A DNA stretch of 64,000 bases, from contig OZ244217.1 in assembly GCA_965216935.1 (NCBI GenBank), forward strand, positions 1,018,316-1,082,315. The letters run 5' to 3'. Under the pieces are notes generated by a model. That model worked only from the letters and a program-made list of their open reading frames with translations. It ran no database searches and was not told the DNA's origin. The position numbers were made by a program, and so were the translations under genes. Shown piece after piece: positions 43,635-46,176 of the stretch; position 1 is the first letter of the stretch, and each line of letters opens with the position of its first letter. The DNA comes from Acidobacteriota bacterium. GTDB lineage: Bacteria; Acidobacteriota; UBA890.

Positions 43635-46100
43635 ATGGGCCGAATGCGGAATCGGGTCCTCTTCTCCCTCGCCATCGCGCTGTGCTTCTGCTGGAGTGGT
43701 GCCGCTGGCGCCCAGGAACAGCTGCCGGCCGGCGACCTCCCAGTGGTGACCATCGGCATACTGCTCGACGGGCCATGGGTGCGCAACGACGAGATCAGCG
43801 GCATCGTCCAGAGCGAAGTCCGCAGCCTGATCCGGCTGGACTACGACGTCCGTTTCCCGGACGACAAGCGGGTGGAGTCCGACTGGACCGTCGAGGGTGT
43901 GCGCCGCGATCTGGATCGCCTGCTTGCCGACCCTGAAATCGACATCGTCTACACCATGGGCGTGGTGGCCTCGAACGAGGCGATCCTGCGAACCACGTTG
44001 CCGAAGCCGGTCATCGCTCCGTTCGTGATCGACTACCAGTTCCAGGGGGCGCCGACCTTGCTGGCGGCCACGGACAGGCTGGTGAGCGGCGTCGAGAATC
44101 TCAGCTACTTGACGACGCCGTGGGAGGCCAGCCGCGACCTCGAGGAGCTCTACCGAATCGTCCCCTTCGAGAAGGTGGCCGTATTCGTCGACGATCGCTT
44201 GCTCAGCGCGTCCGGCGCCATCGTGGACAACATCGCCCGCACGGCCGAGGAGTACGACGTCGGCTTCCAGGTGATTCCGGTGCGCGACCGGGCGCAACCG
44301 GCACTGGACGCCATCGACCCGGACGTCGACGCGGTGATGGTCAGCGCCCTGCTGAACATGTCCGAGGACGAGAATGCCCGGCTGGTGGAGGGCATCAACG
44401 CCCGCGGCCTGCCGAGCATGGCATTGTTCGGCCGTCAGCAGGTTGCCGAGGGTCTCTTGCTGGGCGTAGCCCCGGACACGAACTTCGCCCGGGTCGGCCG
44501 CAGGGTGGCGATCCACACGCAGGCGATCCTGATGGGCGAGCCCGCTGCGGAGCTTCCGATCCAGGTGGGGCGGCCGCGCGAGCTGGTGATCAACATGGAG
44601 ACGGCTCGACGGATCGGTTTCTCGCCGACCTGGGACGTGCTCACCGAAGCGGAGCTGCTCAACCAGCAGGACATGTCGGCGCCCCTGCTGACCCTCACCG
44701 AAGTCATCGGCCAGGCGATCGCGGCCAACATCGACTATCTCGTGACGGCCCGGCAGGTGGCCATCGAGCAACAGGTTCTGCGTCAGGCGACCGCGCCGCT
44801 GCTCCCTTCCATCGATGCCGGGCTGGGCGCCGTCTCGATCGACCCCACAAGGGCGGAGCAGAGCTTCGGGCAGCAGGCACAGAACTCGTTGCGTGGCCTG
44901 CTGGTCCTGAACCAGCTGGTGTACTCGGATGCGGCCTGGACCGGAAAGGAAACCCAGGAAAAGGCGCTGGAGGTTGCCGAACTCGACCGCGAGGCGCTGC
45001 GGCTCGACGTCATCCGCGACGTCTCGGTTGCGTACATGAACGTGCTCATCGCCGCCACCCTGGAGCAGATCCAGCAGCGCAACGTCGATCTCTCGCGTAC
45101 GAATCTGGACCTCGCCGTGGCGCGCGAGTCGGTCGGCTCCGCCAGCCGCGCCGAGGTGTTCCGCTGGCAGAGCGAGATCGCCACCGACCGCAGCGCGGTT
45201 ATCGAGGCCGTGGTCCGGCGGAACCTTGCCGAGATCGAGCTCAATCGTATTCGCAATCGGCCGCTCGAGGATCCGTTTCGCACCGTAACGGACATCGAGG
45301 GCTCGGAGTTCCGCCAGCCGATGGAGGACCTGGTCCCGTTCATCGGCGACCCTGATTCGTTCGATATCTTCCGTGCTTTCATGGTGCAGGAAGGGCTCCG
45401 GAATGCGCCGGAGTTGCGCGCTATCGATACCGGGATCGAAGCGCAGCTCCGCATCTTGACGAACACCAGACGGAACTTCTGGATCCCGGACGTCGGCTTT
45501 CAGGCGCAGGTCGACTACTTGTTTGCCGATGGCGGCGCCGGCGATGCCGACGACGCCGGGGGGGGCGCCGCTGGCGGCGACATCCCGGTCCTGTTCTCGC
45601 CGCCCAAGACCACCTGGAGCTTCGGCGTCGACGCTGCCTACTCGGTGTATCGCGGCAACGCCCGCTACGCCGAACGCCAGCGGGCGCAGGAAGAGCTTGC
45701 CCTGTTGCGCCTGCAGCGCCGTTCGGTGGCGCAGCGGGTCGAGCAGCGGGTGCGCACCGACCTTCACCGGTTGGTGGGATCGTACGCGCAGATCGACCTG
45801 GCCGAAGAGGCGGCCGACGCCGCCCTGCGCAACCTGGAGCTGGTGCAGGAAAGCTATTCCCAAGGAGTGGTGAACATCGTCGAGCTGATCGACGCGCAGA
45901 ACGCCGCGCTGACCGGAGCCCTGGCACGAGCGTCGGCTGTCTACGAGTTTCTGATCAATCTCACCAACGCCGGGCGCTCGATCGCCAATTTCGACTTCGT
46001 CAATCCGGCCGACCCGGCCGCGCGACAGACGTGGTTGCAGAGGGCGCGGGATTTCTTCGAAGCGGCGCGACGACCCGGAGGCGGCGATGAAGCGGCGTGA
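43635..46100 (+). CDS. TolC-family outer membrane efflux protein fused to an N-terminal PF04392-like (ABC-transporter substrate-binding-like) periplasmic domain
   Basis: An ATG at 43635 gives the signal MGRMRNRVLFSLAIALCFCWSGAAGAQE. Residues about 30-330 resemble PF04392, including the family-typical ending RELVINMETARRIGFSPTWDVLTEAELL. The C-terminal about 480 aa are TolC-like (two repeats with coiled-coil plus beta segments, LINLTNA...). The upstream part of the 43197 ORF is rejected. Confidence 0.75.
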   Translation: MGRMRNRVLFSLAIALCFCWSGAAGAQEQLPAGDLPVVTIGILLDGPWVRNDEISGIVQSEVRSLIRLDYDVRFPDDKRVESDWTVEGVRRDLDRLLADPEIDIVYTMGVVASNEAILRTTLPKPVIAPFVIDYQFQGAPTLLAATDRLVSGVENLSYLTTPWEASRDLEELYRIVPFEKVAVFVDDRLLSASGAIVDNIARTAEEYDVGFQVIPVRDRAQPALDAIDPDVDAVMVSALLNMSEDENARLVEGINARGLPSMALFGRQQVAEGLLLGVAPDTNFARVGRRVAIHTQAILMGEPAAELPIQVGRPRELVINMETARRIGFSPTWDVLTEAELLNQQDMSAPLLTLTEVIGQAIAANIDYLVTARQVAIEQQVLRQATAPLLPSIDAGLGAVSIDPTRAEQSFGQQAQNSLRGLLVLNQLVYSDAAWTGKETQEKALEVAELDREALRLDVIRDVSVAYMNVLIAATLEQIQQRNVDLSRTNLDLAVARESVGSASRAEVFRWQSEIATDRSAVIEAVVRRNLAEIELNRIRNRPLEDPFRTVTDIEGSEFRQPMEDLVPFIGDPDSFDIFRAFMVQEGLRNAPELRAIDTGIEAQLRILTNTRRNFWIPDVGFQAQVDYLFADGGAGDADDAGGGAAGGDIPVLFSPPKTTWSFGVDAAYSVYRGNARYAERQRAQEELALLRLQRRSVAQRVEQRVRTDLHRLVGSYAQIDLAEEAADAALRNLELVQESYSQGVVNIVELIDAQNAALTGALARASAVYEFLINLTNAGRSIANFDFVNPADPAARQTWLQRARDFFEAARRPGGGDEAA

Positions 46101-46176
46101 CCCGGAGGCGGTAGTGAAGCGGCGTGACGACCCGGAGGCGGTGATGAAGCGGCGCGACCACCCGGAGGCGGTAATG
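46060..46176 (+). repeat. Four tandem copies of a 27-30-nt direct repeat spanning the OMF stop codon and the MFP start region
   Basis: The units aagcggcg(c/t)gac(gac/cac/-)ccggaggcgg(c/t)(g/a)(atg/gtg) are at 46060-46089, 46090-46116, 46117-46146 and 46147-46176. In the MFP frame they encode KRRDDPEAAM / KRRDPEAVV / KRRDDPEAVM / KRRDHPEAVM. Confidence 0.85.

What the first reader, a model, noticed from the sequence alone, without database searches (positions are those of the whole stretch)
46060..46176. In-frame 27-30-nt tandem repeat (4 copies) straddling the TolC-like gene stop and the MFP gene start, each unit ending in a potential start codon
Seen in sequence. The units aagcggcg(c/t)gac(gac/cac/-)ccggaggcgg(c/t)(a/g)+(atg|gtg) repeat four times. 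In the OMF frame the first unit encodes the C-terminal EAARRPGGGDEAA-stop. In the MFP frame the units encode KRRD(D/H)PEAV(M/V), so every unit offers an in-frame ATG or GTG (46087, 46114, 46144, 46174) upstream of the MFP membrane anchor. Inference: copy-number change by slipped-strand mispairing would alter the OMF C-terminal tail, or the length and charge of the MFP cytoplasmic N-tail, or the choice of start. That is a contingency-locus-like arrangement inside an efflux operon. Unit lengths that are multiples of 3 keep both frames intact.
Basis: partly seen in the sequence, partly recalled or inferred. Interest (0 to 1): 0.55.

Follow-up and report, generated by a model that had tools for sequence, protein, structure and literature searches.

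The report
Fourfold-duplicated ribosome-binding junction in efflux operon
The 30-base stretch where an efflux-pump outer-membrane gene ends and its adaptor gene begins has been copied four times in this genome, giving four in-frame ribosome-binding-site-plus-start-codon modules ahead of a signal peptide that is probably cleaved off, so this looks like an evolutionary curiosity and not a genetic switch.

Summary
Four tandem units (30, 27, 30 and 30 nt; 46060-46176) straddle the OMF stop (TGA 46098-46100), and each ends in an in-frame ATG or GTG of the MFP frame.

1. Each unit carries a perfect GGAGG exactly 5 nt before its start codon.
2. One unit equals the whole single-copy OMF-end/MFP-start junction of the three nearest relatives (73-78% identical MFPs). 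None of 47 related loci has an array there.
3. The MFP is a lipoprotein. Its lipobox Cys is present in 88 of 90 homologues and sits at residue 26 from the 46174 start.

The extra units can therefore only lengthen the n-region of a signal peptide that is probably cleaved. They should not change the mature adaptor.

The OMF kept a near-native tail because CGA became TGA in units 2 and 3. The ancestral-position stop (TAG 46182) lies beyond the array.

Units are 77-93% identical, long, few, and multiples of 3. The array therefore lacks the anatomy of a contingency locus.

Copy-number variation could not be tested, because no second strain exists in any collection searched.

The next junction of the same operon (MFP/RND, 47295-47323) is also expanded, by 19 nt, into three successive TGATG overlaps.

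Best reading: a lineage-specific tandem amplification of translational-coupling junctions, probably near-neutral. It may raise MFP translation.

The parts
43635..46100 (+). OMF (TolC-like) gene. It has a signal peptide (MGRMRNRVLFSLAIALCFCWSGAAGA) and an extra N-terminal domain of about 330 aa, followed by two OEP repeats. It ends at TGA 46098-46100, inside repeat unit 2.
   Evidence: Translation. Pfam PF02321 OEP at E 1.5e-35, 2 stretches. The start codon is inferred from the signal-peptide-like N-terminus.
46060..46176 (+). Tandem array of 4 units (30, 27, 30, 30 nt). Each unit holds the last OMF-tail codons, GGAGG, a 5-nt spacer and a start codon.
46077..46089 (+). Module 1: GGAGG 46077-81, spacer, ATG 46087. 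This ATG precedes the OMF stop and overlaps the OMF gene by 14 nt (ATGAAGCGGCGTGA).
46104..46116 (+). Module 2: GGAGG 46104-08, spacer, GTG 46114. The GTG lies 13 nt after the OMF stop.
46134..46146 (+). Module 3: GGAGG 46134-38, spacer, ATG 46144.
46164..46176 (+). Module 4: GGAGG 46164-68, spacer, ATG 46174. This start is positionally orthologous to the MFP start of the relatives and puts the lipobox Cys at residue 26.
46098..46100 (+). The OMF stop in use: TGA in unit 2, where units 1 and 4 have CGA.
46125..46127 (+). Second OMF-frame TGA, in unit 3 (same CGA-to-TGA difference). It acts as a back-up stop.
46182..46184 (+). OMF-frame TAG, 8 nt after the last ATG. L002 and L003 have their OMF stop at the same offset from the MFP ATG, so this is probably the ancestral stop position.
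   Evidence: The ancestry is inferred.
46174..47301 (+). MFP (periplasmic adaptor) gene, 375 aa from the last start. The maximal ORF from 46087 is 404 aa, which is how the public protein record P0001 calls it.
   Evidence: Pfam HlyD_D23, HlyD_3 and Biotin_lipoyl_2. Homologues.
46174..46251 (+). Lipoprotein signal peptide MRTSRSRQWAPWAAVLILAAGFGAAC. The Cys codon is 46249-46251.
   Evidence: Cys lies within 20 aa upstream of the conserved xxRPV motif in 88 of 90 homologues, at median called position 23. The sequence matches a PS51257-like core pattern.
47295..47323 (+). Second expanded junction, GAGCTGATGG-CCTGATGG-AGAGCTGATGG. It has three TGATG stop/start overlaps (47299, 47307, 47318). It creates two mini-ORFs: M-A-stop (47301-47309) and M-E-S-stop (47309-47320). 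The RND ATG at 47320 follows.
   Evidence: Relatives L001-L003 have one TGATG overlap here.
47320..50430 (+). RND inner-membrane pump gene (1036 aa). Its N-terminus [10 protein letters not shown] is shared with the relatives.
   Evidence: Pfam ACR_tran at E 4e-161..

Best explanation
**What it is.** The array is a lineage-specific tandem amplification, one copy to four, of the 30-bp translational-coupling junction between the OMF and MFP genes of an RND efflux operon.

**Ancestral state.** In the ancestor, as in today's nearest relatives, the last OMF codons (...FFEAARRSGG..) contained the MFP Shine-Dalgarno GGAGG, and the MFP ATG overlapped or abutted the OMF stop. Duplicating that segment three times added 87 nt in all, so both frames were kept. 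The result is four in-frame modules of GGAGG, 5 nt and a start codon.

**Consequences.**
1. The OMF frame would have run on about 29 codons, to the ancestral-position TAG at 46182. CGA-to-TGA changes in units 2 and 3 restored a tail of near-native length. The OMF stop now overlaps the first ATG (46087).
2. The MFP can in principle start at any of the four modules. The last (46174) gives a canonical 26-residue lipoprotein signal peptide. The upstream starts add 10, 20 or 29 residues (KRRDxPEAV repeats, net positive overall) to its n-region.
3. Signal peptidase II should cut before the lipobox Cys, so every isoform should yield the same mature adaptor.

**Shown and inferred.** The anatomy and the derived, single-copy-ancestor origin are shown. 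Use of several starts, cleavage, and a near-neutral or mildly expression-raising effect are inferred.

**Verdict.** It is not an on/off or antigenic contingency switch.
For: - **The array is real and far beyond chance**.
- **The unit is the ancestral junction.** In alignment A1, one window unit covers the whole junction of L001, L002 and L003. GGAGG and the TG of the start codon are invariant columns, and all three relatives have ATG there.
- **The array is unique among relatives.** TRF on the MFP-start region of 47 related loci finds no comparable array.
- **Single overlapping junctions are the norm.** In relatives, the stop of the roughly 800-880-aa upstream OMF overlaps the MFP ATG by 1 nt in 15 loci, by 4 nt in 4 and by 11 nt in 2. 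Most of these have GGAG or GGGAG about 7-8 nt upstream of the ATG.
- **The MFP looks like a lipoprotein.** A Cys lies just upstream of the conserved xxRPV motif in 88 of 90 homologues, at median position 23. In the window the Cys falls at residue 26, 36, 46 or 55, depending on the start used.
- **All four modules keep GGAGG, the 5-nt spacing and a start codon**.
- **The mRNA is open.** Region 46030-46230 is less structured than all 200 shuffles (z = +2.28), as expected for an accessible initiation region.
- **Long n-regions can be tolerated.** The closest relative, L001, has no in-frame ATG, GTG or TTG between its junction ATG and its Cys at residue 50. Its signal peptide must therefore be 50 aa long.
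- **OMF-frame stops** lie at 46098, 46125 and 46182.
- **The same kind of event occurred at the next junction** of the operon.
- **Distance matters for coupling.** Termination-reinitiation coupling needs overlaps or very short gaps, and about 20 nt nearly abolishes it (PMC10666635). This makes the re-created stop next to the first start meaningful.
Against: - No expression, ribosome-profiling or population data exist, so which starts are used and whether copy number varies are unknown.
- The units have diverged (77-93% identity), yet no SD, spacer, start codon or frame has been lost. That could reflect selection for the tandem modules and not neutrality. With only about 6 differences the pattern is not significant. 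My rough estimate is P of about 0.15 that none of six random changes hits an SD or a start codon.
- The lipobox has G at position -3 (FGAAC), which is uncommon among the homologues (6 of 88).
- Lipoprotein processing is inferred from sequence alone.
Confidence: 0.72

Rival explanations
1. Contingency, or phase-variable, locus. Slipped-strand mispairing changes the unit number at high frequency. That would vary the OMF tail, the MFP N-tail or the choice of start, and so generate phenotypic heterogeneity in efflux.
For: It is a tandem repeat at the 5' end of a gene with alternative start codons. Superficially this resembles loci such as H. influenzae lic1 (my own knowledge). Copy-number invariance could not be shown, because there is no second strain.
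Against: - Units are 27-30 nt, only 4 in number and 77-93% identical. Exact identity at the repeat lag is at most 16 nt.
- Unit lengths are multiples of 3, so no frameshift switch is possible.
- The MFP N-terminus is a lipoprotein signal peptide that should be cleaved.
- The OMF tail is protected by two successive stops.
- The array is absent from all 47 related loci examined.
Confidence: 0.05
2. Adaptive tuning of expression. Four tandem SD-start modules act as a high-capacity ribosome loading site that raises MFP translation relative to the OMF. At the next junction, the three-step TGATG mini-ORF relay attenuates coupling into the RND gene. Together they would shift subunit ratios toward the 3 OMF : 6 MFP : 3 RND stoichiometry of tripartite pumps (stoichiometry from my own knowledge of AcrAB-TolC).
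For: - All four modules retain a perfect GGAGG, a 5-nt spacer, a start codon and the frame, despite 7-23% divergence between units.
- The region is unusually unstructured.
- Both junctions of the same operon are expanded, whereas relatives have single overlaps at both.
- Coupling efficiency falls steeply with distance (PMC10666635), so a relay of overlaps is a plausible attenuator.
Against: - Relatives manage with one module, so the array is not required.
- The retention of the modules is not statistically significant, given so few substitutions.
- There are no expression data.
- Longer n-regions could lower export efficiency and cancel any gain.
Confidence: 0.15
3. A functional extended signal peptide. 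The protein starts at 46087, as in the public 404-aa gene call, and the KRRDxPEAV repeats form a long charged n-region. That region would modulate targeting or the timing of export, by analogy with the extended signal peptides of some autotransporters (my own knowledge).
For: - The public record calls the 404-aa form (P0001).
- The OMF stop overlaps the 46087 ATG, which favours reinitiation there.
- The closest relative, L001, necessarily has a 50-aa signal peptide.
- The extension carries 12 K/R against 7 D/E, so it is net positive.
Against: - The L001 extension is unrelated in sequence to the repeat. Its local alignment scores below the shuffle mean, and 974 of 1000 shuffles score at least as well. 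A long n-region is therefore not a conserved element.
- The median Cys position in the family is 23.
- The 404-aa call is what any longest-ORF rule would give.
Confidence: 0.06
4. Assembly or sequencing artefact that inflated a single junction into a repeat.
For: There is only one public sequence of this organism, so no independent confirmation exists.
Against: - Each unit carries its own substitutions, and one carries a 3-nt deletion. Collapse or expansion artefacts give identical copies.
- The source contig is 5.87 Mb, a finished-quality assembly.
- Both reading frames stay coherent across the array.
Confidence: 0.02

Closest known systems
Overlapping stop/start gene junctions (ATGA or TGATG) that couple translation by termination-reinitiation (Huber et al. 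2019, PMC6728339; Huber et al. 2023, PMC10666635)
   Same: The ancestral junction, seen in relatives, is of this kind: co-directional genes for subunits of one complex, an SD inside the upstream gene, and an overlap of 1, 4 or 11 nt. In the window the OMF stop still overlaps a start (46087). The MFP/RND junction is built from TGATG overlaps.
   Different: Here the junction itself has been tandemly multiplied: four SD-start modules at OMF/MFP and three TGATG overlaps at MFP/RND. Two literature searches found no description of that.
In-frame coding tandem repeats, or minisatellite-type VNTRs, in bacterial genes (for example the 'coding tandem repeats' of Neisseria, mentioned in PMC5953494)
   Same: The unit length is a multiple of 3, the units are imperfect copies, and the origin is plausibly slippage or unequal recombination. 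Copy-number change would keep the frame.
   Different: Those repeats lie inside the mature protein and change its length or antigenicity. Here the repeat spans a gene boundary. It is translated as a repeat only in a signal-peptide n-region that should be removed, and it multiplies a ribosome-binding site.
Simple-sequence contingency loci with 5' repeats and alternative starts (for example H. influenzae lic1 CAAT repeats; my own knowledge)
   Same: Repeats lie at the 5' end of a gene, with several potential start codons.
   Different: Those units are 1-9 nt, perfect and numerous, and they shift the frame relative to the start codons. Here the units are 27-30 nt, imperfect, four in number and frame-neutral.
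Bacterial lipoprotein signal peptides (PROSITE PS51257-type; Lgt, Lsp, Lnt pathway; my own knowledge)
   Same: There is a positive n-region (MRTSRSR), a hydrophobic core and the lipobox FGAA|C. The Cys is at residue 26 and is conserved across homologues.
   Different: There are up to three extra in-frame initiation modules upstream, which would put the Cys at residue 36, 46 or 55.

Membership tests
Simple-sequence contingency (phase-variable) locus | Short (1-9 nt), perfect repeat units in many copies, which are prone to slippage | tested here: not met
   Units are 27-30 nt, there are 4 copies, and pairwise identity is 77-93%. The longest exact run at any repeat lag is 12-16 nt.
Simple-sequence contingency (phase-variable) locus | A copy-number change switches expression, by frameshift or by promoter spacing | tested here: not met
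   All units are multiples of 3, so both frames are preserved. No promoter-like site lies in 45700-46500.
Simple-sequence contingency (phase-variable) locus | Copy number is polymorphic among strains or within populations | not testable with these tools
   No second strain is available. The nearest MFP is 78% identical, the protein cluster has one member, there are no other encoding contigs, and the metagenome pattern scan gave only chance hits.
In-frame coding tandem repeat (VNTR within an ORF) | Unit length is a multiple of 3 and the array lies inside an open reading frame | tested here: met
   Units of 30, 27, 30 and 30 nt are open in the MFP frame from 46087.
In-frame coding tandem repeat (VNTR within an ORF) | The repeat is present in the mature protein, so copy number changes the product | tested here: not met
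   The repeat lies upstream of the conserved lipobox Cys, so it should be removed with the signal peptide (cleavage inferred). In the OMF frame only 1.3 units are translated before the stop.
Translationally coupled overlapping gene pair (termination-reinitiation) | Co-directional genes whose stop and start overlap or lie within a few nt, with the SD inside the upstream gene | tested here: met
   The OMF TGA at 46098-100 lies 11 nt after ATG 46087 and 13 nt before GTG 46114, and GGAGG sits inside the OMF codons. Relatives overlap by 1, 4 or 11 nt. Whether coupling actually occurs is not testable here.
Bacterial lipoprotein (lipobox signal peptide) | Positive n-region, hydrophobic h-region, lipobox [LIVMFWSTAG]2-[LIVMFYSTAGCQ]-[AGS]-C, and Cys at about residue 15-35 | tested here: met
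   From 46174 the peptide is MRTSRSRQWAPWAAVLILAAGFGAAC, with Cys at 26, and the PS51257-like regex matches. Cys is conserved in 88 of 90 homologues. From the upstream starts Cys falls at 36, 46 or 55, beyond the usual range.
Tripartite RND efflux operon (OMF-MFP-RND) | Adjacent co-directional genes with OEP, HlyD/MFP and ACR_tran domains | tested here: met
   Pfam PF02321 (E 1.5e-35), PF16576 and PF13437, and PF00873 (E 4e-161).

The most novel reading that the evidence does not exclude
Tandem multiplication of coupling junctions may be a heritable way to retune subunit ratios in an operon. Under this reading, the four SD-start modules boost and buffer MFP initiation. All products converge on one mature lipoprotein, because the variable part is a cleaved n-region. 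The three-step TGATG mini-ORF relay at the next junction damps ribosome hand-over into the RND gene. Occasional unit gain or loss by recombination would then adjust adaptor:pump stoichiometry without touching any mature protein.
Probability: 0.12. Interest if true: 0.6.

Novelty: new member of a known kind. Interest (0 to 1): 0.3.

Why it matters
If the array is only a near-neutral duplication, it mainly matters for annotation. The public 404-aa gene call probably over-extends the MFP by 29 residues. The case also shows how a stop codon can be re-acquired to rescue the upstream gene after a junction duplication.

If the tandem modules are all used, this would be a natural case in which a ribosome-binding site was multiplied in frame and the cost was hidden inside a cleavable signal peptide. 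Together with the mini-ORF relay at the next junction, it would offer a simple, testable model of how translational coupling and subunit stoichiometry evolve in efflux operons.

Tried and rejected
- **Exact-protein look-ups.** I looked for other contigs encoding the 404-aa MFP and the RND protein, to compare copy number. Nothing is on record.
- **Metagenome scan.** I scanned with the unit-to-unit junction pattern CCGGAGGCGGYRRTGAAGCGGCG. The 6 hits are all single chance matches inside unrelated coding sequence, with no second unit beside them.
- **L001's long n-region as a decayed repeat.** I tested whether the long n-region of the closest relative's MFP (L001) is a decayed copy of the repeat. 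The local alignment score is 12 against a shuffle mean of 15.5, and 974 of 1000 shuffles score at least as well. Rejected.
- **RNA structure or a known RNA family.** The region is less structured than shuffles (z = +2.28). The only Rfam match is a meaningless miRNA hit at E 0.25, elsewhere in the region.
- **Internal promoter or terminator.** None was found in 45700-46500.
- **Selection on the modules.** There are too few substitutions, about 6, to distinguish constraint from chance.
- **A window-wide tendency to duplicate start sites.** Close 10-mer repeats are enriched over shuffles (65 against 2-17). The other cases lie in intergenic or 5'-leader regions or inside genes, and none duplicates a gene start.
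Full report
**Observation**

The sequence at 46060-46176 consists of four head-to-tail units of 30, 27, 30 and 30 nt. TRF scores the array at 168 (period 30, 4.1 copies, 81% matches) and at 185 (period 57, 2 copies, 88% matches). A consensus search finds three units within 3 mismatches, against 0.00 expected. It is the highest-scoring tandem array in the window.

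- The OMF frame ends ...FFEAARRPGGGDEAA*, with TGA at 46098-46100 inside unit 2.
- The MFP frame is open from ATG 46087 and reads KRRDDPEAAM, KRRDPEAVV, KRRDDPEAVM, KRRDHPEAVM.
- In-frame starts lie at 46087, 46114 (GTG), 46144 and 46174.

Every unit also contains GGAGG (46077, 46104, 46134, 46164) exactly 5 nt before its start codon. Each unit is therefore a complete translation-initiation module. The mRNA across the array is less structured than all 200 dinucleotide shuffles (z = +2.28), which fits an accessible initiation region. No promoter-like site, terminator-like site or Rfam family is present.

**Gene context**

- 43635-46100 encodes an outer-membrane factor with two OEP repeats (PF02321, E 1.5e-35).
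- 46174-47301 encodes a membrane-fusion/adaptor protein (HlyD_D23, HlyD_3, Biotin_lipoyl_2).
- 47320-50430 encodes an RND pump (ACR_tran, E 4e-161).

**The MFP N-terminus is a lipoprotein signal peptide**

Among the 120 best homologues, 90 have the conserved xxRPV motif near the N-terminus, and 88 of those have a Cys within 20 residues upstream of it. Small residues (G, A or S) occupy position -1, and the median called Cys position is 23.

In the window, the start at 46174 gives MRTSRSRQWAPWAAVLILAAGFGAAC|AEE, with Cys at residue 26. This matches a PS51257-like core pattern. From the three upstream starts the Cys would be at residue 36, 46 or 55.

By established knowledge of the Lgt/Lsp pathway, everything before that Cys is removed. 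The repeats therefore cannot form a permanent cytoplasmic tail, and all possible isoforms should converge on one mature adaptor. This step is an inference.

**Origin**

The MFP has one exact database entry: 404 aa, called from 46087, on a 5.87-Mb contig. Nothing else exceeds 78% identity.

The three nearest relatives are L001, L002 and L003. Two are labelled Acidobacteriota MAGs and one is an unclassified uncultured bacterium. Their MFPs are 73-78% identical to the window's. Each has a single copy of the unit.
- L001: ...FFEATRRSGRQQ*, with GGGAGGCAGCAATGA
- L002: ...FFEAARRSGGSDAP*, with GGGAGGTTCCGATG
- L003: ...FFDAARRSGGINGS*, with GGAGGGATCAATG

Alignment A1 shows that one window unit spans this entire junction. 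GGAGG and the TG of the start codon are invariant columns, and all three relatives have ATG there.

TRF on the equivalent region of 47 related loci finds no comparable array. In relatives that carry the long upstream OMF, its stop overlaps the MFP ATG by 1 nt in 15 loci, by 4 nt in 4 and by 11 nt in 2. Most of these have GGAG or GGGAG about 7-8 nt upstream of the ATG.

The ancestral state is therefore a single, overlapping, SD-bearing coupling junction. The window carries a derived threefold duplication of it (+87 nt, in frame).

In L001 and L003 the MFP begins ATG(A/G)AAGCTGA. This shares (G/A)AAGC with the ...TTCGAAGCGGCG that opens the unit. Slippage at that microhomology is a plausible origin, but this is speculative.

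**Aftermath in the OMF frame**

The OMF-frame stops are TGA 46098 (unit 2), TGA 46125 (unit 3) and TAG 46182. The TAG lies 8 nt after the last ATG, the same offset as the OMF stops of L002 and L003. It probably marks the ancestral stop.

Units 2 and 3 have TGA where units 1 and 4 have CGA. Without these changes the OMF would carry about 29 extra residues. With them its tail (RRPGG+5 residues) is close to that of the relatives (RRSGG+4 in L002 and L003, RRSGR+2 in L001). The stop again sits next to a start: it lies 11 nt after ATG 46087 and 13 nt before GTG 46114.

Termination-reinitiation coupling has been shown to need overlaps or very short gaps, and about 20 nt nearly abolishes it (PMC10666635). 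Coupled ribosomes would therefore most likely restart at 46087 or 46114. The start at 46174, 73 nt downstream, would depend on its own SD.

**Is it a contingency locus?**

The defining features are not met.
- Units are long, few and 77-93% identical.
- Exact identity at the repeat lag is at most 16 nt.
- Unit lengths are multiples of 3.

Copy-number polymorphism could not be tested. Exact look-ups found no other contig. The metagenome scan with the unit-junction pattern returned six single chance matches inside unrelated coding sequence, none flanked by a second unit.

**Can upstream starts be tolerated?**

The closest relative, L001, has no in-frame ATG, GTG or TTG between its junction ATG and its lipobox. 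Its signal peptide must therefore be 50 residues long. That extension is unrelated to the window repeat, so long n-regions arise independently in this family and are evidently viable. The window's full extension carries 12 K/R and 7 D/E, which is net positive.

**A second expanded junction**

At the MFP/RND boundary the relatives have one TGATG overlap (GAGCTGATGGAYCT.., with RND starting [10 protein letters not shown] or [10 protein letters not shown]). The window has GAGCTGATGG-CCTGATGG-AGAGCTGATGG (47295-47323).
- It contains three TGATG overlaps, at 47299, 47307 and 47318.
- An exact 10-mer is repeated 19 nt apart.
- It creates two mini-ORFs, M-A-stop and M-E-S-stop.
- Each mini-ORF stop overlaps the next ATG, and the chain ends at the RND ATG 47320.

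Three of the nine + strand CTGATGG sites in the 64-kb window lie in these 26 nt. Both junctions of this operon therefore underwent junction duplication in this lineage.

**Interpretation and confidence**

I put 0.72 on this reading: a lineage-specific tandem amplification of a translational-coupling junction, with the OMF stop re-acquired, the MFP mature product unchanged and a near-neutral effect.

A more interesting variant gets about 0.15. In it, the tandem initiation modules raise MFP output and the mini-ORF relay damps RND output, which would shift subunit ratios. The conservation of all four SD, spacer and start modules fits that idea. It rests on only about six substitutions and is not significant.

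The contingency-locus reading gets about 0.05, a functional extended signal peptide about 0.06, and an assembly artefact about 0.02.

**Novelty**

Tandem in-frame duplications and overlapping coupled junctions are both well known. A multiplied junction that stacks ribosome-binding modules in front of a cleavable signal peptide did not turn up in two literature searches. It is best filed as an unusual new member of known kinds, of modest interest unless expression data show an effect.

Noticed in passing
window 47295-47323: The MFP/RND junction is also expanded. There are three successive TGATG stop/start overlaps (47299, 47307, 47318) and two mini-ORFs (M-A-stop and M-E-S-stop) before the RND ATG at 47320. 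Relatives L001-L003 have a single TGATG overlap. An exact 10-mer, GAGCTGATGG, is repeated 19 nt apart.
   Followed up: partly
window 43635-44700 (N-terminal third of the OMF): The OMF is about 820 aa, against about 450-500 aa for a typical TolC. It has an extra domain of about 330 aa between the signal peptide and the OEP repeats. That domain matches PF04392 (ABC transporter substrate-binding protein) only weakly (E 0.025, below the cut-off). An upstream ORF of about 800-880 aa is also present in most related loci, so this may be a conserved fusion of a binding-protein-like domain to an OMF.
   Followed up: partly
L001 3848-3997: The MFP of the closest relative has no alternative in-frame start between its junction ATG and its lipobox Cys at residue 50. 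Its lipoprotein signal peptide therefore has an unusually long, non-repetitive n-region of about 33 aa.
   Followed up: partly
window 12171-12198: A 14-nt tandem duplication, GGGGACCATGGATT / GGGGACCATGGGAG, lies immediately upstream of a GGGAGGAG...GTG candidate start, in the leader of the gene that begins around 12205.
   Followed up: no
window 10364-10407: An intergenic tandem repeat of 19-20 nt (TCGATAnnCGCGCGGAGAGC, 2.2 copies) lies between the gene ending at 10323 and the next gene. The last partial copy gives GGAGAG, 5 nt, then an ATG that opens only a 5-codon ORF.
   Followed up: no
window 20964-21057: An imperfect 18/33-nt tandem array (CCGCTTCGTCCGCGTCGC-like, about 5 copies) lies just after a stop at 20948. 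In one frame it encodes a Ser/Ala/Gly/Pro-rich low-complexity N-terminal stretch.
   Followed up: no
window 62916-63052: Two adjacent 22-23-nt tandem arrays (about 3.6 and 2.4 copies, CCCGGCAGC-containing units) lie in the gap between two convergent genes (62038-62940 on + and 63070-63999 on -).
   Followed up: no
window 50506-53616 (+) and 51049-53610 (-): The 1036-aa + strand ORF downstream of the RND gene has no Pfam match at all. It overlaps a - strand ORF with gene-like GC3. The + strand ORF is probably a spurious high-GC ORF, so there is no second RND gene.
   Followed up: no
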